IMG/VR virus record: IMGVR_UViG_2671180609_000014
Source of the DNA: a virus
Lineage: Duplodnaviria; Heunggongvirae; Uroviricota; Caudoviricetes
Direction: 5' to 3' (one strand)
Length of the DNA stretch: 11,469 nucleotides
Made by a program: the position numbers and the translations under genes. Each line of letters starts with the position of its first letter. Position 1 is the first letter of the stretch. Below are positions 1-7,205 of the stretch, piece by piece. The notes beneath the pieces were generated by a model, which saw only the letters and a program-made list of their open reading frames with translations, made no database searches and had not been told where the DNA came from.

Positions 1-980
1 GGGGTGCCATTAGCACGCCAGTTGTAATCCACAGAATCCCGGGCTTTTTTAAATGCAACGGTTAATGTTGCTGGCTTAACCATCCCGCCGCGCTTAGCTG
101 TCCCTTTCGCGTGATGGTGGTGCAATAGCCACGGACTAAGAACGCAATCGCGGCAGGATGACACCACATCATCCAGGGTGAGATTTAATTTATCGCAACG
201 CAGAGCCAGAGGGATGGCAATCCGGGTTCCTGTTTTTTGCTGTTCGACATGAAGATAACCATCCCGGATATCCGAAAATTGCATTTTGCAAATATCTGAA
301 AGGCGCTGGCCTGTCATCAGTGCCAGCAGCATACCGCGCTGTAAAAAGTAACCATCCTTTTCCGCTGCGTTATAAATCATCATCCACTCATCAAAAGTCA
401 GTCGCTGTCTTGATATCCGCACCTGCGGTTTTTTTGCCGATTCTGCAGGGTTAAAGCCTGGCGGGACATCGCCCGTTTGCTGAGCTTCCCGGAAAACATC
501 GATCAGTACTTTCCTGAAAATTTGTCCCATTCTGTTATGTCCTCTGGCCTTGTACTCTTCCAGTACTGATACCACATCTTTTACGGTTATGGCATCTAAC
601 GGTCTGGTGCCAAAACGTTCATCAAATACCCTGAGAGGGGCCGCTTTCTGTTTCAGCGTGTTGAGTTTGATCTCGCCGTTTTCATATCTTTCCTGTTGAA
701 TTTTTCTGTAATTATTCAGAAAAATGGTAACGGTTGATGAACCGCCGGTATCACTAATAATTTTCTCCTGCAGACTGAGCATTTGTTCCATTTGCTGCCG
801 GGCAAGACGGCTGTTCGCTTCTGCTGCAATAGTTTCTGCCAGTTTCTGGTCAATACTGCCGAGACCGTGATTTTTGCCTGTTATGGGATGCCTGTAACGC
901 CAGTAAACTTTGTTATTTCTTTTGTCAAAATACGGAGATAATCCCGGAACATCGGTTTTATATTTTCGCGGGCGCGCCAT
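1..980 (-). CDS. int: Tyrosine integrase, lambda Int family (C-terminus beyond window edge)
   Basis: Minus-strand frame is open from ATG at 980-978 to position 1. Translation starts MARPRKYKTDVPGLSPYFDKRNNKVYWRYRHPITGKNHGLG (compare lambda Int MGRRRSHERRDLPPNLYIRNNGYYCYRDPRTGKEFGLG) and later contains QRLSDICKMQFSDIRDGYLHVEQQKTGTRIAIPLAL, matching the lambda Int core region QRVGDLCEMKWSDIVDGYLYVEQSKTGVKIAIPTAL. The His/Tyr catalytic motifs lie left of position 1. Confidence 0.9.
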   Translation of the reverse strand, partial: MARPRKYKTDVPGLSPYFDKRNNKVYWRYRHPITGKNHGLGSIDQKLAETIAAEANSRLARQQMEQMLSLQEKIISDTGGSSTVTIFLNNYRKIQQERYENGEIKLNTLKQKAAPLRVFDERFGTRPLDAITVKDVVSVLEEYKARGHNRMGQIFRKVLIDVFREAQQTGDVPPGFNPAESAKKPQVRISRQRLTFDEWMMIYNAAEKDGYFLQRGMLLALMTGQRLSDICKMQFSDIRDGYLHVEQQKTGTRIAIPLALRCDKLNLTLDDVVSSCRDCVLSPWLLHHHHAKGTAKRGGMVKPATLTVAFKKARDSVDYNWRANGT

Positions 981-1146
981 CTTCCAGTATCCTCTTCAAA
1001 GCAGGGTGATCTGTGGCGATCACCTCCGGCTTGTTTACCATTCCGACAAAGCGAGCTTGCGGATCCACTCGCCAGCGTCTTCCAACTTTTTTGGGGAGAG
1101 GAAATATCATTCCGGCTTTAGCGTATTTACTTAACGTACTCGGAGT
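958..1146 (-). CDS. xis: Excisionase (Xis-like); N-terminus lost in the N-run
   Basis: Minus-strand frame reads ...TLSKYAKAGMIFPLPKKVGRRWRVDPQARFVGMVNKPEVIATDHPALKRILEDGAPAKI with stop TAA at 960-958, overlapping the int start by 23 nt as xis/int do in lambda. The IFPLPKKVGRRWRV stretch resembles the lambda Xis wing IFPPPVKDGREYLF. The frame is open into the N-run, so the start codon is not visible. Confidence 0.7.
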   Translation of the reverse strand, partial: TPSTLSKYAKAGMIFPLPKKVGRRWRVDPQARFVGMVNKPEVIATDHPALKRILEDGAPAKI

Positions 1147-1250
1147 NNNNNNNNNNNNNNNNNNNNNNNNNNNNNNNNNNNNNNNNNNNNNNNNNNNNNN
1201 NNNNNNNNNNNNNNNNNNNNNNNNNNNNNNNNNNNNNNNNNNNNNNNNNN
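1147..1250. other. Run of 104 N (assembly gap or masked sequence)
   Basis: Positions 1147-1250 are all n. The run separates the 3' end of the exonuclease gene from the 5' end of xis; the true length of the missing sequence is unknown. Confidence 1.
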
Positions 1251-3437
1251 TTCGTCGATAAATTCCCGCAATTGTAATAGTGCATCATCTAACGGGATTT
1301 CATCGGTCATAATGGCAGATTGCGCTTCGCGTGATTGCTTAAGCCACCATTTAATGGTGTCCCGATCAATGACCCCGCCAGCAGTTTCCAGATCGATAGT
1401 CTTACTAAATTCCGGTCCCATATCTCCGGTTTGCGGATCGAAAAATATTGCACCTATTGAGATGATCGGGGCATCAGGATTTTTTCCCATGGTTTCAAGG
1501 TCGATCATTAGATGGTCACACGTCCTGCTGGTGGATGTGATTTCTTGATGACCGTTCACCTTAATTGAGTGATCTGCCGTCTCGCCAGTTTCATTATCGC
1601 TATCGTGATGCTGATTGCCGTCAGTGTTCTCCTTGTGTGGATGTTCAGCGCCTTCCATTTCCTCCGGATCATCTTCCTGAACTTCAACCTGATACTCTTC
1701 ATCGAATGTTTCCTGGTATGTTGCGTCGCCCATCACCGCGCCACAATCAGGGCAGTTGCCGCCGCCGGTCTGACCGCAGGCGGTGCAGACTTTTTCCGGT
1801 TCCTGTTGCGCTACTGGCTCAGGTTGTTTCGTTTCTGGCTCGTTTTGTTGCGTATTTGGGCTGTTTTGTTCCGCTTTCTGGTCGTTCTGTTCCGTTTCTT
1901 GCTGGTTCTGGTTCACAGAATCGCGGGTTTCAATCCCCTTCACCCATTTCGGATCATTCGGGTCGCTAATCCCTGCAACAAATTCACCACGTGATGCGGC
2001 GAGCAACTGATTGGCGTCAGGCTGGCTGATATTGGCTGCCTGCATAATTTTCTTTACTTCGTCAGCGGTAACTTTTACCGGTTCTGGTTGTTCAGAATTT
2101 TGTGCGGTATTTGCATTTTGCGGTAAGCCTGTGTATGTGCCATTTTTTCGGGCAAAATATTCTTCTTTTGTGATTTCAGTAGCCCCGGCAGCCAGCGCCT
2201 TATCCAGACCAGAAAGTTTGTTTGCGCGACCGTATTTTTCGCCATCCTTGTCGGTGAAGAGGAAGTAGAACGGCCCCTCACGCTCTACAGATGGTTCGAC
2301 TTCCACTTTGCATTCGGTTTTTTCGTTGTCCGGAATTGCCGTTTCCACTGCATCAGTTTCTGGTACTGGCGACGAGAGAGTGTCAGTTGCGCTCTGATTT
2401 GTTCCTTCATCTTCAAACACGCCCTTTGTAGTCAGGTATTCAGTAATGTATTTGTTCAGTGCCACAGGGTCTTTGTGAATGTCGATCGGACGTTCACGGA
2501 CAAGGCCAAAAATAGTCTGGCGGTCGTAGCGAAGGGCATCAGGCTGTTTGCGCATTGATGCCGAGATACGCTTCCAGTCTTCGCGGTCGTTGTCGATAAC
2601 TTCATTTTTTGCCCAGCGATGGATGCTGCCGTCAATGTTTCCGGCATCCACATCACCAGGCCAGAGAGCGTAGGCCAGTTCGTCATCCAGTGTTTTCCAT
2701 GTCTGCTTATATTCGCGACGAATGACTGCAGTGACAGGGGGGATTTTTTCTGCTGAGTTTTCAGTGTGCTGTCGGTGGACTCTGGCGCGGGCGAGATCAA
2801 CAACAGACGTGTATTTTCCGGTTTCCTTGCGTTCACCTTCGCGACGTTTTTTCCAGATGCGCATTTCTGCCTGAATTTCGGGCCATTTGGCACCAGGCTT
2901 ACATTTATGCTTAACCCACCCGATGGCATGCAGCTTAAGCTCCGGATACATGGCGTTAACTTCTGGCATTTTCATCAACGCTTCAACGATATGTCCGTCG
3001 AATGTTGCCATGTCTTCCTGCAACAATTCCTGCGCGCTAATCACCATATCAACGGTGATGTTTTCACATGTGTCGAACTTAACCATGACAGCGTTCTGTA
3101 CTTCAGGGGCCAGCTTGTCAAAAGCGACGTTCATCGGATCGGATTCAGTCTCAACCGGGACAAAGGAAGCAGCCCCCTCATCCCAGCGGTTTTCCTGCAT
3201 ATATTCAGCATCCCAGGAATCGAGGGCAGGGCGGGGTATACCGGGTTTATCCTCGCAAACAAGAAATTTATAAGCGCAGTCCTGAGCAGCCGGATAATGC
3301 TCCAGGAATTGCCAGTGAAATTTTGCGCGGGCGCGACGTTCATCACCGGCTTCAATGGCAGTGGCTACAGCGACTGCACCTTCTTCCTTTATTGCCTGTT
3401 CGTCCGGAATGGCGGCGCAAATAAAGACTTTACTCAT
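1251..3437 (-). CDS. Large RecE-like prophage exonuclease: unknown N-terminal domain, Q/E/P-rich linker with C4 zinc ribbon, C-terminal DnaQ-like (DEDD) exonuclease motif; 3' end truncated by the N-run
   Basis: ATG at 3437 preceded by GAGG 9 nt upstream, and at least 729 codons are open before the N-run. Residues about 478-605 (LLAASRGEFVAGISDPNDPKWVKGIETRD ... CTACGQTGGGNCPDCGAVMGDATYQETFDEE ... EEMEGAEHPHKEN) match, from memory, the central region of E. coli RecE. Residues about 640-729 (CDHLMIDLETMGKNPDAPIISIGAIFFD...) carry the Exo I DxE motif of DEDD 3'-5' exonucleases. The track's terminal LRVR after the X residues is an artefact of reading through the N-run. Confidence 0.8.
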
Positions 3438-3529
3438 TTTGTTTTACCTCATTACAGATTTAAGGGTGAACAAATCCCTGCCATTGCTGGCATATAAGAA
3501 TGAAATCGGATGTTTATTACGGAACTGTT

Positions 3530-3721
3530 TTAAAGACCTGCCGGGATTTCGTTATTATCCTGGTGAATAACTTTATCGACAGGGTAACAGTTACCGGGAA
3601 TTTTCTGTTCGGTTGCTGCAGTCACACACTCCTGCATTGTCCTGTGAACACTGACTGCAATATCAACTGGCTCTCCGGAAACAAGAAAAACTGTCAGAAC
3701 AAGTGCAAATGCTGTATTCAT
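3530..3721 (-). CDS. ydfD: YdfD-like small membrane/lysis protein (63 aa)
   Basis: MNTAFALVLTVFLVSGEPVDIAVSVHRTMQECVTAATEQKIPGNCYPVDKVIHQDNNEIPAGL has an N-terminal hydrophobic segment. Its ATG (3721-3719) overlaps the dicB stop (3720-3718) in an ATGA arrangement. Position and size match ydfD of the K-12 Qin dicB operon. The track ORF starts 18 codons further upstream, but the ATGA-coupled start is preferred. Confidence 0.65.
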   Translation of the reverse strand: MNTAFALVLTVFLVSGEPVDIAVSVHRTMQECVTAATEQKIPGNCYPVDKVIHQDNNEIPAGL

Positions 3722-3906
3722 TGCCAGCATCCTTTTTGTATCGGACGTAAACGGGCCAGCATTGAAAGAATGCATATTTTATTTAATAACTCCCGTTCGT
3801 GTTTTCTCTTGTTAATGGCATCTTCAGTAAATACAGGGTTACTGATAGTGACACCAATTTCAAAACAACCTTCAGACGTATTAACGTTTGGTAATAACGT
3901 TTCCAT
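3718..3906 (-). CDS. dicB: Cell-division inhibitor DicB (62 aa)
   Basis: METLLPNVNTSEGCFEIGVTISNPVFTEDAINKRKHERELLNKICILSMLARLRPIQKGCWQ is near-identical to my recollection of K-12 DicB. ATG at 3906 is preceded by GAGGA 9 nt upstream. It sits downstream of DicF on the same strand, as in Qin. Confidence 0.9.
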   Translation of the reverse strand: METLLPNVNTSEGCFEIGVTISNPVFTEDAINKRKHERELLNKICILSMLARLRPIQKGCWQ

Positions 3907-4075
3907 TATCGCGTCCTCAACAATGAATTTTGTGATGCGGTGCCTGGTGCCTCCAGGTGACGTTAACCAGTTAACAATTAACGCCGGATACAGAGAATCC
4001 ACCCATAACACTGTTTTTAGCTTTAACTGTTCCGCGTGCGCTTAGCCGCATTCACTGCATCACAAAATTCACTTT

Positions 4076-4131
4076 AAAAAGGGCGGACATCAGTTCATGG
4101 GCAAACAGATGCCGCCAAACGTCACCAGAAA
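4076..4131 (-). ncRNA. dicF: DicF small RNA with intrinsic terminator
   Basis: Minus-strand sequence UUUCUGGUGACGUUUGGCGGCAUCUGUUUGCCCAUGAACUGAUGUCCGCCCUUUUU carries the DicF 5' seed (UUUCUGGUGACGUUUGGCGG) and a GGCGG/CCGCC stem followed by a U-run. It lies immediately upstream of dicB. Mature ends are produced by processing, so coordinates are approximate. Confidence 0.75.
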
Positions 4132-4464
4132 ATTGATAACAGAGGGCGTTGCAGCGGGGTTGTCACTTAAGCGTATGGTCAACCTGACAACCCGGTGTCC
4201 TCAACGGGGAAGGAATAACCCCGCCATACTTACCGCTGCGCCATTTCGCGGAGTGCCACAACCGGAAGCGCACGGTCGACGAAAATTTAACGACAGGCTA
4301 TCTATGAACCAGCAACCTCGCCGTGCGCTTTCGCGTTATGCTCTGACTTTTCAGAGAAATATCCTTTCAGTAAACTGTCAGTGCCGGATGTTCACCCGTG
4401 TCCGGCGCACGCACTCCACTTCACCCGTGGAGAACTCCTTAATTACCAACCCTCAGGAGGGTGA

Positions 4465-5396: not shown

Positions 5397-5696
5397 TTAC
5401 TCGAGAGGAAATTGGTTATGAATACAATCAAGTTTTCTTGCCCAGAATGTGGTGGCTAAGTCTTTGACACATCCTTTAAGCCGCAGGGCTCTGACAGTTT
5501 CGCGGGAGCCATCTGCAAAAATTGTGGTCACCTTGTAACTGAAGATGAGTCCTCGCAGTTCGATGACGAAATCGTTGACAATATCTTCGGTGCACTCACC
5601 AGAGACTTTCTGAAGTAAAGGCGCATACCGCTTAGTTACCGCTCTGATAACTCTTACCTGTCCGGCAATGGCGCTGATATCAATATAAAGCGCCAT
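5397..5696 (-). CDS. Hypothetical protein, 99 aa (first ORF of the dicB operon; coding strand uncertain)
   Basis: Co-directional with the dicB operon and downstream of the putative promoter/operator. It has a weak RBS, and a protein-like zinc-ribbon frame with a better RBS exists on the opposite strand (see findings), so the coding strand is unresolved. Confidence 0.4.
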   Translation of the reverse strand: MALYIDISAIAGQVRVIRAVTKRYAPLLQKVSGECTEDIVNDFVIELRGLIFSYKVTTIFADGSRETVRALRLKGCVKDLATTFWARKLDCIHNQFPLE

Positions 5697-6366: not shown

Positions 6367-6442
6367 ATTAGGTAATTCTAATTTTTCTTGACTTAGGTTT
6401 CTCTACGATCTAGTTTCCTTAGGAAAATCTAAGGGTTTCGAT
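6367..6442. promoter_or_regulatory. Divergent dicA/dicC promoter-operator region (OR-like)
   Basis: 76-bp intergenic region containing CTTAGGTTTCTCTAC (6392-6406) and the palindrome CCTTAG-gaaaat-CTAAGG (6417-6434). A rightward TTGACT (6388-6393), 17-nt spacer and TAGTTT (6411-6416) could serve the dicC-like gene. Confidence 0.6.
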
Positions 6443-6670
6443 ATGTTGAAAATTGATGCTATAGCGTTTTTTGGCAGCAAAACAAAGCTTGCCAATGTCG
6501 CAGGAGTTAGGCTGGCAAGCGTTGCTGCATGGGGGGAACTGGTTCCTGAAGGTCGCGCGATGCGCCTGCAAGAGGCATCCGGCGGGGAACTTCAGTACGA
6601 CCCCAAAGTTTATGACGAATATCGTAAGGCAAAGCGGGCGGGGCGGTTGAACAATGAAAATCACCACTGA
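6443..6670 (+). CDS. dicC: DicC-like (Cro-position) small regulator, 75 aa
   Basis: Divergent from the dicA-like gene, with ATG 76 bp from the dicA start. Size matches DicC (76 aa), and MLKIDAIAFFGSKTKLANVAGVRLASVAAWGELVPEGRAMRLQEASGGELQYDPKVY... agrees with my imperfect recollection of DicC. Confidence 0.7.
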   Translation: MLKIDAIAFFGSKTKLANVAGVRLASVAAWGELVPEGRAMRLQEASGGELQYDPKVYDEYRKAKRAGRLNNENHH

Positions 6671-7205
6671 ACAGGTTTGTGAGGCTCTGGATACCTGGGT
6701 ATGCCGACCAGGAATGACACAGGAGCAGGCGACGATATTAATCACGGAAGCATTCTGGGCTCTGAAAGAACGCCCGAACATCGATGTTCAACGCGTCACG
6801 TTTAATGATGGCGAGGTTGATCAACGGGCGCTGGGCGTTAACCGGGTGAAGATATTCGAACGCTGGAAAGCTATCGACACCAGAGATAAGCGTGACAAAT
6901 TCACGGCGCTGATTCCGGCAATTATGGAGGCTATCCGGATCAGCGATTTCAGATTGTATTGTGAAATTACTGACGGAAAAAGCATTACGTACATGATCGC
7001 CGGGTTAAACAAAGAATATGGCGATGTGGTGGAGTCCGGGCTGCTTTTTGCGGATCCAGTTGTTGTGGAACGTGAGACTGACGAGCTTATAGAAAAAGCT
7101 ATTGCTTTCAAGCACGCGTATCGTCAGCAATACCAATATTACTTTGCAGATAAACAAATGTCTGCCAGGGGGGCGTATGAGTATCGATGCACTACGATGG
7201 GCTAA
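6654..7205 (+). CDS. CII-position protein, 183 aa (possibly YdaT-like; unverified)
   Basis: ATG at 6654 overlaps the last 17 nt of the dicC-like gene, and the ORF ends 29 nt inside the replication gene. Product MKITTEQVCEALDTWVCRPGMTQEQATILITEAFWALKERPNIDVQRV... contains RWKAIDTRDKRDKFTALIPAIMEAI, which I tentatively associate with the Rac YdaT family. Confidence 0.55.
   Translation: MKITTEQVCEALDTWVCRPGMTQEQATILITEAFWALKERPNIDVQRVTFNDGEVDQRALGVNRVKIFERWKAIDTRDKRDKFTALIPAIMEAIRISDFRLYCEITDGKSITYMIAGLNKEYGDVVESGLLFADPVVVERETDELIEKAIAFKHAYRQQYQYYFADKQMSARGAYEYRCTTMG

What the first reader, a model, noticed from the sequence alone, without database searches (positions are those of the whole stretch)
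1251..3437. RecE-like protein whose nuclease domain appears swapped for a DnaQ-like DEDD exonuclease
The central part of this at least 729-aa protein, including the zinc ribbon CTACGQTGGGNCPDCG and the acidic EEMEGAEHPH segment, tracks the middle of E. coli RecE as I recall it. After SDNETGETADH it diverges into ...CDHLMIDLETMGKNPDAPIISIGAIFFD..., which is the Exo I signature of 3'-5' DEDD exonucleases, not the PD-(D/E)xK 5'-3' nuclease of RecE. The first 340 residues or so are a separate domain I cannot assign. No RecT/Bet-type annealase gene is visible between this gene and xis, although the N-run could hide sequence.
Basis: partly seen in the sequence, partly recalled or inferred. Interest (0 to 1): 0.55.

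Follow-up and report, generated by a model that had tools for sequence, protein, structure and literature searches.

The report
Common prophage RecE-like 3'-5' exonuclease

Summary
Window 1251-3437 (minus strand) translates exactly as quoted. In complete O157 genomes that are 100% identical across the gene's flanks, the 104-N run hides 409 nt. Those 409 nt hold the last 94 codons of an 823-aa gene (RefSeq WP_000048551.1, 'exonuclease'), a 64-nt spacer and the start of xis. No recT is hidden there.

Domain by domain:
- Residues 262-625 align with K-12 RecE 278-591 (E 3e-61; about 73-75% identity around the zinc ribbon).
- Similarity stops at ETGE(T/V)AD, aa 622 / RecE 588.
- Residues 642-813 are a full Pfam PF16473 DEDDh 3'-5' exonuclease domain (2.4e-67). 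The nearest solved relative is T4 DexA.
- The N-terminus is 93% identical to K-12 YdfE and is a probable remote homologue of RecE's own N-domain.

The protein is not rare. It matches PHROG 2082 end to end, and its 90% cluster has 23,183 members. The DEDD module is in 4083 of 5426 complete E. coli genomes, against 1736 for RecE's nuclease domain.

Side observation: the same scaffold is also fused to a probable Rad52-like annealase that databases label 'exonuclease'.

The parts
1251..3437 (-). Visible part (aa 1-729 of 823) of the prophage 'exonuclease' gene. It is the intact orthologue of the K-12 pseudogene ydfE and matches PHROG 2082.
2763..3437 (-). YdfE-type N-terminal domain (aa 1-225). 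It starts with an alpha/beta part and continues with helices. No solved-structure relative was found. It is a probable remote homologue of RecE's PF06630 domain.
2403..2717 (-). Helical domain (aa 241-345) shared with RecE (RecE about 278-350) and with every other member of the scaffold family.
2133..2282 (-). Small beta-hairpin/helix mini-domain (aa 386-435) that K-12 RecE lacks but many scaffold relatives have.
   Evidence: This stretch falls in a gap of the RecE alignment. pLDDT is 93-96. It appears as 'Q_mid2' hits. dN/dS is 0.02-0.07.
1569..2006 (-). The only segment with DNA-level homology to K-12 recE (78% nt; aa 478-623 = RecE 458-589). It is mostly predicted disordered Q/N/E-rich and acidic linker.
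1740..1787 (-). CxxC...CxxC zinc ribbon (C551, C554, C563, C566), shared almost identically with RecE.
   Evidence: pLDDT is only about 56-60.
1251..1514 (-). First half (aa 642-729) of the PF16473 / DexA-like DEDDh exonuclease domain. The Exo I residues D646 and E648 are encoded at 1494-1502.
1147..1250 (.). Scaffold gap of 104 N. In 100%-identical genomes it replaces 409 nt holding aa 730-823 (Exo II D746, Exo III H796/D801, stop codon), a 64-nt spacer and the first 20 codons of xis. The hidden DEDD module is a multi-copy repeat in O157 genomes, which plausibly caused the gap.
   Evidence: Copy number is 5-8 places per O157 genome.
958..1146 (-). Excisionase gene (visible 3' part), directly downstream of the exonuclease gene.
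1..980 (-). Integrase gene (cut by the window start). The prophage sits next to ompW in matching genomes.

Best explanation
The gene encodes an 823-aa early-left-operon protein of DicA/DicC-immunity lambdoid prophages (PPompW type in O157:H7). It is a mosaic of three parts.

1. **Scaffold, aa 1 to about 435.** This consists of a YdfE-type N-domain, a helical domain and a mini-domain. It belongs to the same family as the non-catalytic N-terminal two-thirds of RecE.
2. **Tether, aa about 436-641.** This is a largely disordered Q/N/E-rich and acidic linker containing a Cys4 zinc ribbon. It is nearly identical to the RecE segment just before RecE's nuclease domain.
3. **Nuclease, aa 642-813.** This is a DEDDh (DnaQ/RNase T-superfamily) domain of the PF16473 / T4 DexA type. 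It stands where RecE has its PD-(D/E)xK 5'-3' nuclease.

**Shown.** The architecture, the intact catalytic pentad (D646, E648, D746, H796, D801), the absence of any annealase gene nearby, and purifying selection on all folded parts.

**Inferred.** The C-terminal domain removes nucleotides from 3'-OH ends by two-metal-ion catalysis, most likely on DNA, because its nearest characterised relative is the DNA exonuclease DexA. The scaffold brings it to the same, still unknown, partner or substrate that RecE's N-terminal region addresses. The protein acts during lytic development as a stand-alone processor of DNA 3' ends in a phage that has no recombinase of its own and depends on host recombination.

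It is not an exonuclease VIII and not half of a RecET-type two-component recombinase. The module exchange happened by recombination within the shared linker.
For: **Architecture.** Pfam finds PF16473 at aa 642-813, E 2.4e-67. The only PDB sequence hits are T4 DexA entries 8KEL/8KEN at E 6e-08; DexA is annotated and published as a 3'-5' DNA exonuclease. The catalytic motifs are aligned and located. The AF2 model of aa 640-819 shows the beta-beta-beta-alpha... order of an RNase H-like fold at pLDDT about 80-90, while aa 440-640 is mostly below 50.

**RecE relationship.** BLASTP E 3e-61. Nucleotide homology is restricted to aa 478-623 and ends at the domain border.

**N-domain.** hhalign against RecE's PF06630 domain gives 95% probability (E 2e-08) with bridging sequences and 52% (E 1.5e-4) without; the reversed control gives E 0.26.

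**Modularity.** All four N x C combinations exist among 50%-identity cluster representatives. Phage vB_EcoS-813R8 combines a RecE-type N-domain (70% identical to K-12 RecE) with a DEDD domain 99% identical to this one.

**No annealase.** recT is absent from all DEDD-type loci examined, and no SSAP is annotated between the repressor and int.

**Position.** The gene occupies the slot that recET occupies in Rac. No sigma-70-like promoter lies directly upstream on its strand.

**Selection.** dN/dS is 0.02-0.35 in all folded domains, and intact 823-aa ORFs occur in E. ruysiae, E. albertii and E. coli.

**Literature context.** Half of lambdoid phages encode no recombinase and rely on the host (PMC3784561). 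RecE's N-terminal region has unknown function but improves linear-linear recombination (PMC11611040).
Against: - No biochemical data exist for this protein. Polarity, DNA versus RNA preference and the in-vivo role are all inferred.
- The Pfam family is named after an exoribonuclease (Rv2179c), so RNA cannot be excluded.
- A stand-alone E. coli DexA homologue was reported as an anti-T4 defence nuclease (PMC12153337). That points to a different role.
- The gene is often broken. K-12 ydfE is cut by IS2, strains 107/109/110 carry IS1203 in it, and PPompW_EH1846 has a frameshift. Asadulghani et al. report this kind of system intact in only one of seven Sakai prophages. It is therefore dispensable for the lysogen.
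- In this window the last 94 codons are not sequenced, so intactness here is assumed from identical genomes.
- The scaffold's partner is unknown, and fold searches gave nothing.
Confidence: 0.7

Rival explanations
1. It is a prophage-encoded defence nuclease of the 'HREX' kind. The DexA-like domain would selectively digest incoming phage DNA carrying modified cytosines, such as T4 5hmC DNA, and so protect the lysogen.
For: Kang et al. 2025 report that the E. coli DexA homologue EcD digests the T4 genome but not unmodified DNA, and protects cells from T4 (PMC12153337). The present domain is 57-58% identical to stand-alone prophage exonucleases of about 190 aa such as phage LLS gp34. From the A78 numbering, EcD is probably of that kind; this is my inference. 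The module is extremely widespread and recently spread among prophages, with dS 0.02-0.03.
Against: The residues proposed for 5hmC recognition are not conserved. DexA W152 aligns with Y766, and D169 lies in a DexA-specific insertion that is absent here. The gene sits in the repressed early-left operon next to xis, in the slot of recET/red, not in a typical lysogen-expressed moron position. There is no PADLOC hit. The EcD result concerns a stand-alone protein expressed from a plasmid.
Confidence: 0.12
2. It is an exoribonuclease, like the Pfam namesake Rv2179c. It would trim or degrade RNA 3' ends, for example host or phage transcripts or sRNAs such as DicF, during induction.
For: PF16473 is described as '3'-5' exoribonuclease Rv2179c-like'. 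RefSeq names many copies '3'-5' exoribonuclease'. DEDDh enzymes often act on both RNA and DNA; this is general knowledge of the superfamily.
Against: By sequence, the only solved relative detected is the DNA exonuclease DexA. Rv2179c is not detected even at E<=10. The scaffold is shared with DNA-recombination proteins: RecE, and fusions to a probable Rad52-like annealase.
Confidence: 0.1
3. It is an ordinary RecE/RecT system whose true C-terminus and recT are hidden by the N-run.
For: The gene is widely annotated 'exodeoxyribonuclease VIII' and was described as an ExoVIII-type recombination system (PMC2669165).
Against: The visible sequence already diverges from RecE into the Exo I motif before the N-run. 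In 100%-identical genomes the gap holds only 409 nt, with Exo II/III, the stop codon and the start of xis. tblastn finds no recT or RecE nuclease domain in any DEDD-type locus. The NCBIfam RecE equivalog scores 279 bits against a cut-off of 1269.
Confidence: 0.01
4. It is a decaying relic of a defective prophage with no current function.
For: Disrupted copies are frequent: K-12 ydfE, IS1203 insertions and a frameshifted PPompW_EH1846 copy. The literature also reports disrupted copies in Sakai prophages.
Against: Intact 823-831-aa ORFs dominate the clusters. dN/dS is well below 1 in every folded domain, the catalytic residues are conserved, and the gene is intact across Escherichia species.
Confidence: 0.05

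Closest known systems
E. coli K-12 RecE (exonuclease VIII, Rac prophage, b1350)
   Same: Same genomic slot, the early-left operon upstream of xis/int. The helical domain, disordered linkers and zinc ribbon are homologous (aa 262-625 vs RecE 278-591, E 3e-61; 73-75% identity near the ribbon). The N-domain is probably a remote homologue.
   Different: There is no PD-(D/E)xK nuclease domain (PF12684), no above-threshold PF06630 match, and no adjacent recT. A DEDDh domain of presumably opposite polarity replaces the nuclease. There is an extra mini-domain at aa 386-435.
Bacteriophage T4 DexA (exonuclease A; PDB 8KEL/8KEN)
   Same: It is the nearest solved relative of the C-terminal domain. The DEDDh motifs Exo I, II and III are conserved.
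   Different: Identity is only about 29%. DexA is a stand-alone 227-aa protein with extra loops, including the one carrying D169. W152 is Y in the query. DexA belongs to a virulent phage that degrades host DNA.
Mycobacterium tuberculosis Rv2179c (namesake of Pfam PF16473)
   Same: Same Pfam family, matched end to end at 226.5 bits.
   Different: It is a stand-alone bacterial exoribonuclease. It is not detectable by pairwise sequence search from this domain.
E. coli K-12 ydfE (b1577, Qin prophage pseudogene)
   Same: 93% identical over aa 1-257, with the same neighbours (dicB, ydfD, then int).
   Different: The K-12 copy is truncated by IS2, so the linker and DEDD domain are lost.
Stand-alone prophage DEDD exonucleases (e.g. 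phage LLS gp34; probably EcD of the HREX report)
   Same: 57-58% identical to the C-terminal domain, and also located directly upstream of xis/int.
   Different: They are about 190 aa with no RecE-type scaffold. EcD has a reported anti-T4 activity that has not been tested for the fused form.

Membership tests
RecE / exodeoxyribonuclease VIII (NCBIfam NF007259; Pfam PF06630 + PF12684) | C-terminal PD-(D/E)xK 5'-3' nuclease domain (PF12684; RecE about 600-866) | tested here: not met
   There is no PF12684 hit, whereas K-12 RecE hits it at 4.1e-28. BLASTP shows no alignment beyond RecE 591. tblastn with RecE 600-866 finds nothing in any DEDD-type locus.
RecE / exodeoxyribonuclease VIII (NCBIfam NF007259; Pfam PF06630 + PF12684) | Whole-protein score above the NCBIfam equivalog cut-off | tested here: not met
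   279 bits against a cut-off of 1269. Only model positions 445-602 are matched.
RecE / exodeoxyribonuclease VIII (NCBIfam NF007259; Pfam PF06630 + PF12684) | N-terminal Exonuc_VIII domain (PF06630) | tested here: inconclusive
   There is no Pfam hit. The profile-profile comparison gives 95% (E 2e-08) with bridging sequences, 52% (E 1.5e-4) without, and E 0.26 for the reversed control.
RecE / exodeoxyribonuclease VIII (NCBIfam NF007259; Pfam PF06630 + PF12684) | Adjacent recT annealase gene (two-component recombinase) | tested here: not met
   The gene ends 64 nt before xis. There is no recT by tblastn in L001, L003, L004, L007-L011 or the window.
RecE / exodeoxyribonuclease VIII (NCBIfam NF007259; Pfam PF06630 + PF12684) | Central helical domain, linker and Cys4 zinc ribbon | tested here: met
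   BLASTP E 3e-61, 66/90 identical over aa 536-625, and 78% nt identity.
PF16473 Rv2179c-like / DexA-like DEDDh 3'-5' exonucleases | Domain match above Pfam gathering score | tested here: met
   105.4 bits on the visible half. 226.5 bits over model 2-177/177 on the complete protein, against a cut-off of 27.
PF16473 Rv2179c-like / DexA-like DEDDh 3'-5' exonucleases | Catalytic DEDDh residues (Exo I D-x-E, Exo II D, Exo III H-x4-D) | tested here: met
   D646 and E648 are visible in the window. D746, H796 and D801 are present in the 100%-identical complete copy. They match DexA D7/E9, D119 and H186/D191. Exo I and II were aligned by MAFFT; Exo III was read by motif, because MAFFT misplaced it.
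PF16473 Rv2179c-like / DexA-like DEDDh 3'-5' exonucleases | RNase H-like alpha/beta fold | tested here: met
   The AF2 model of aa 640-819 has the strand/helix order E-E-E-H-H-H-E-H-E-H-H at pLDDT about 73-93. The sequence hits DexA structures.
PF16473 Rv2179c-like / DexA-like DEDDh 3'-5' exonucleases | 3'-5' polarity and substrate (DNA or RNA) | not testable with these tools
   This needs a biochemical assay.
HREX defence exonucleases (EcD; Kang et al. 2025) | Residues proposed for 5hmC recognition (DexA W152, D169) | tested here: not met
   W152 aligns with Y766. D169 falls in a DexA-specific insertion that is absent from the query. The alignment is at only 29% identity, so it is of modest reliability.
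HREX defence exonucleases (EcD; Kang et al. 2025) | Protection of the host against modified-DNA phages | not testable with these tools
   There is no PADLOC model hit for the fused protein. An experiment is needed.
PHROG 2082 'exonuclease' / K-12 YdfE family | End-to-end match to the family profile, and identity to YdfE | tested here: met
   phrog_2082 matches 1-823 of 823 at 1846.6 bits. Identity to YdfE is 93% over aa 1-257.

The most novel reading that the evidence does not exclude
The non-catalytic RecE-type scaffold (N-domain, helical domain, disordered tether and Zn ribbon) may be a general delivery platform. Lambdoid phages would combine it with interchangeable DNA-end effectors: a 5'-3' PD-(D/E)xK exonuclease (RecE), a 3'-5' DEDDh exonuclease (this gene), a probable Rad52-like annealase (the phrog_2489 / ZF40 gp07 type) and at least one further module. 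The DEDD version, which is the commonest in E. coli, would then define an annealase-independent end-processing route of opposite polarity in 'recombinase-less' lambdoid phages. One possibility is trimming 3' tails so that host RecBCD can load. Under this reading, 'exonuclease VIII' annotations and counts of phage recombination systems based on them would be systematically wrong.
Probability: 0.25. Interest if true: 0.6.

Novelty: already known. Interest (0 to 1): 0.27.

Why it matters
The gene itself is catalogued. It has a RefSeq WP_ accession, it matches PHROG 2082, and its precomputed Pfam architecture is PF27430 + PF16473 + PF27432. It is present in about three quarters of complete E. coli genomes, so finding it in a window is not news.

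Two points have some practical value.

- **Misleading labels.** Many records and papers call it 'exodeoxyribonuclease VIII / RecE-type recombination system'. It has neither RecE's nuclease nor a RecT. Inferences about prophage recombination capacity or recombineering potential that rest on that label are therefore unsafe.
- **A handle on an open question.** The pattern of one scaffold with several swapped end-processing modules bears on what the N-terminal two-thirds of RecE does. The protein's own function remains experimentally untested.

Tried and rejected
- **PADLOC.** No hit for the fused protein.
- **Literature.** Searches for Rv2179c + phage, PF16473 and ydfE returned no functional study of this protein. 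One query was wasted because 'Qin' matches an author name.
- **IS element under the N-run.** I considered this because the top hits (strains 107/109/110) carry IS1203 in the gene. Rejected: that insertion lies at about aa 440, where the window is contiguous. A multi-copy repeat is the likelier cause of the gap.
- **Genome-contig scan.** It returned only 7 loci, too few for a context survey.
- **Pseudomonas phage LKA5.** I tested whether its DnaQ-type exonuclease near the Rad52-like gene is a PF16473 relative. It is not: tblastn finds nothing and Pfam assigns it to RNase_T.
- **Exo III alignment.** MAFFT misaligned DexA Exo III (H186/D191), so the H-x4-D motif was read by eye.
Full report
**1. 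Observation**

- The zinc ribbon CTACGQTGGGNCPDCG is at aa 551-566.
- EEMEGAEHPH is at aa 592-601.
- SDNETGETADH is at aa 613-623.
- The Exo I-like MIDLETMG is at aa 644-651.

The ORF runs into a 104-N scaffold gap at 1147-1250.

**2. What lies under the N-run**

The region matches many complete E. coli O157:H7 genomes at 100%. I compared the window with strain CDC#03-98 (locus L001).

- Window 1-1146 equals L001 5102-6247.
- Window 1251-4250 equals L001 6657-9656.
- The gap therefore replaces 409 nt.

In L001 the gene is 823 aa (6372-8843, WP_000048551.1, 'exonuclease'). It ends 64 nt before the excisionase gene, which is followed by int and, outside the prophage, ompW.

The hidden stretch holds aa 730-823, the spacer and the first 20 codons of xis. 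It has no room for a recT and contains none.

The hidden DEDD module occurs 5-8 times per O157 genome at 99% identity or more. That plausibly explains why a short-read assembly broke there. An IS1203 insertion seen in three strains lies elsewhere in the gene and is not the cause.

**3. Anatomy**

- **C-terminus.** Pfam places a complete PF16473 (Rv2179c-like 3'-5' exoribonuclease) domain at aa 642-813 (E 2.4e-67), with a weak RNase_T match over the same residues. The half visible in the window already scores 105 bits.
- **Nearest solved relative.** The only solved structures found by sequence are T4 DexA, 8KEL/8KEN. DexA is a 3'-5' DNA exonuclease.
- **Catalytic residues.** The DEDDh pentad is intact: D646, E648, D746 and H796-x4-D801.
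- **Models.** An AF2 model of aa 440-823 shows a confident RNase H-like alpha/beta domain for aa 640-819. The region aa 440-640 is mostly disordered, with a poorly defined zinc ribbon. A second model, of aa 1-470 (mean pLDDT 85), shows three folded units at 1-225, 241-345 and 386-435, separated by disordered linkers.

**4. Relation to RecE**

BLASTP against K-12 RecE aligns aa 262-625 with RecE 278-591 (39% identity, E 3e-61).

- Identity is 27/36 over aa 470-505 and 66/90 over aa 536-625.
- It falls to 1/15 immediately after ETGE(T/V)AD, which is aa 622 / RecE 588.
- At the DNA level, only aa 478-623 (RecE 458-589) is similar, at 78%.

The mosaic joint therefore sits at the border of the nuclease domains.

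RecE carries PF06630 (aa 2-178) and the PD-(D/E)xK domain PF12684 (aa 615-850). The query has neither above threshold. It reaches only 279 of the 1269 bits required by the NCBIfam RecE equivalog.

The N-terminal 257 residues are 93% identical to K-12 YdfE, a Qin-prophage pseudogene truncated by IS2.

I compared a profile of the YdfE-type N-domain with a profile of RecE-type N-domains.

- With bridging sequences the result is 95% probability (E 2e-08).
- Without them it is 52% (E 1.5e-4), in the same register.
- A reversed control gives E 0.26.

The two N-domains are probably distant homologues.

Fold searches with the N-terminal model found no informative relative.

**5. How common it is**

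- The protein matches PHROG 2082 end to end.
- Its 90% cluster has 23,183 member sequences, with precomputed Pfam architecture PF27430 + PF16473 + PF27432.
- The DEDD module is found in 4083 of 5426 complete E. coli genomes (8148 places).
- RecE's nuclease domain, always with recT, is found in 1736.
- The YdfE-type N-domain is in 3965 genomes.

The same gene sits in the same place (dicB-ydfD-gene-xis-int) at other attachment sites and in isolated phages.

Asadulghani et al. counted these genes as 'ExoVIII-type' recombination systems in seven Sakai prophages (PMC2669165). By the domain evidence above, that label is a misnomer.

**6. Modularity**

A search of 1.84 billion cluster representatives with aa 1-360 found only 177 clusters. 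Mapping domains on them shows all four combinations of N-domain (YdfE-type or RecE-type) with C-domain (DEDD or PD-(D/E)xK).

Phage vB_EcoS-813R8 combines a RecE-type N-domain (70% identical to K-12 RecE) with a DEDD domain 99% identical to this one.

Synonymous divergence between this copy and copies in E. ruysiae, E. albertii and a Qin-site E. coli prophage differs along the gene. It is 0.02-0.03 for aa 549-823 and 0.16-0.36 for the 5' part. dN/dS is 0.02-0.35 in all folded domains.

The Zn-ribbon + DEDD module has therefore spread recently by recombination, and the protein is under purifying selection.

**7. A side observation**

Sixteen clusters carry the same scaffold fused to a third C-terminal module (phrog_7838, labelled 'exonuclease'). 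By profile comparison it is neither DEDD nor PD-(D/E)xK.

- Its consensus contains the Rad52 signature KKSLTDAIKKALSxLGFSADVxLGLYD.
- Seven of the 16 fusions hit PF04098 Rad52_Rad22 in register, just under threshold.
- So do stand-alone homologues in Vibrio phage D79 (19.3 bits against a cut-off of 20.3) and in Pseudomonas phage LKA5.
- In D79 the next gene is annotated as a Mu Gam-like end-protection protein.
- The fused form in Pectobacterium phage ZF40 (gp07) occupies the same early-left slot.

These are probably scaffold::annealase fusions. That ties the scaffold to DNA-end and recombination functions.

**8. Mechanism**

*Shown:* the architecture, the intact active site, the absence of a partner annealase, the operon position and the selection pattern.

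*Inferred:*
- The C-terminal domain is a two-metal-ion 3'-5' exonuclease that most likely acts on DNA.
- It is tethered by a long flexible linker to a scaffold that targets the same unknown partner as RecE's N-terminal region. That region is of unknown function but enhances linear-linear recombination (PMC11611040).
- It works alone in a phage of the 'no own recombinase' class, which makes up about half of lambdoid phages (PMC3784561).

*Rivals:*
- **HREX-type defence nuclease** (PMC12153337). It is weakened by non-conservation of the proposed 5hmC-recognition residues, by the operon position and by the lack of a PADLOC hit.
- **Exoribonuclease role.** It is suggested by the family name and weakened by the closer similarity to DexA.
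- **Hidden RecET.** Refuted.
- **Relic without function.** Weakened by the selection pattern, although disrupted copies are frequent.

**9. Verdict**

The object is an already catalogued, very common prophage protein and is not a novelty of this window.

Interest is low to moderate. Its value lies in correcting the 'ExoVIII' label and in pointing to the RecE scaffold as a module-swapping platform.

Noticed in passing
Related proteins P0130, P0132, P0140, P0146, P0154, P0160, P0166, P0181, P0182, P0197, P0201, P0211, P0212, P0216, P0217, P0221; L019:3687-5852 (Pectobacterium phage ZF40 gp07); L018:6989-7756; L017:4989-5741: The same RecE/YdfE-type scaffold is fused to a module of about 270 aa that databases label 'exonuclease' (phrog_7838/2489). 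The module carries the Rad52 signature and hits PF04098 just below threshold, in register. Stand-alone homologues lie next to a Mu Gam-like gene or are annotated 'DNA repair protein'. It is probably a mislabelled annealase fusion.
   Followed up: partly
Related proteins P0126, P0210 (C-terminal about 260 aa; phrog_26058): A fourth C-terminal module on the same scaffold. It has no Pfam hit and no profile similarity to the DEDD or PD-(D/E)xK domains.
   Followed up: no
window 11246-11395 (+) and the ORF starting at 11393: A Sok antitoxin RNA (Rfam RF01794, 103.9 bits) overlaps the start of a Hok-like small hydrophobic ORF (MKQQKAMLIALIVICLIVIVTALVT...). The ORF runs off the window end. Together they form a hok/sok type I toxin-antitoxin locus.
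   Followed up: partly
window 4251-4320: The window carries about 70 nt, in the region upstream of dicB, that are absent from the otherwise 99.9%-identical strain CDC#03-98. No tandem repeat was detected.
   Followed up: partly
window 8705-8760 and 5418-5460: Several prophage genes here look damaged. The DUF1627-like ORF starting at 8705 has an in-frame TAG at about 8757. A small zinc-ribbon-like ORF starting at 5418 stops after 13 codons. Downstream fimbrial-like sequence is annotated as frameshifted in the matching genome.
   Followed up: no
window 1527: There is a single Chi octamer (GCTGGTGG) on the + strand inside the exonuclease gene, and none elsewhere in the 11.5-kb window. This is too little sequence to judge the Chi enrichment expected for recombinase-less lambdoid phages.
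   Followed up: no
L001 vs L007/L008/L014 (gene copies in E. ruysiae, E. albertii and a Qin-site E. coli prophage): There is a sharp drop in synonymous divergence from 0.16-0.36 (aa 1-548) to 0.02-0.03 (aa 549-823). This indicates recent horizontal spread of the Zn-ribbon + DEDD module among otherwise diverged copies.
   Followed up: partly
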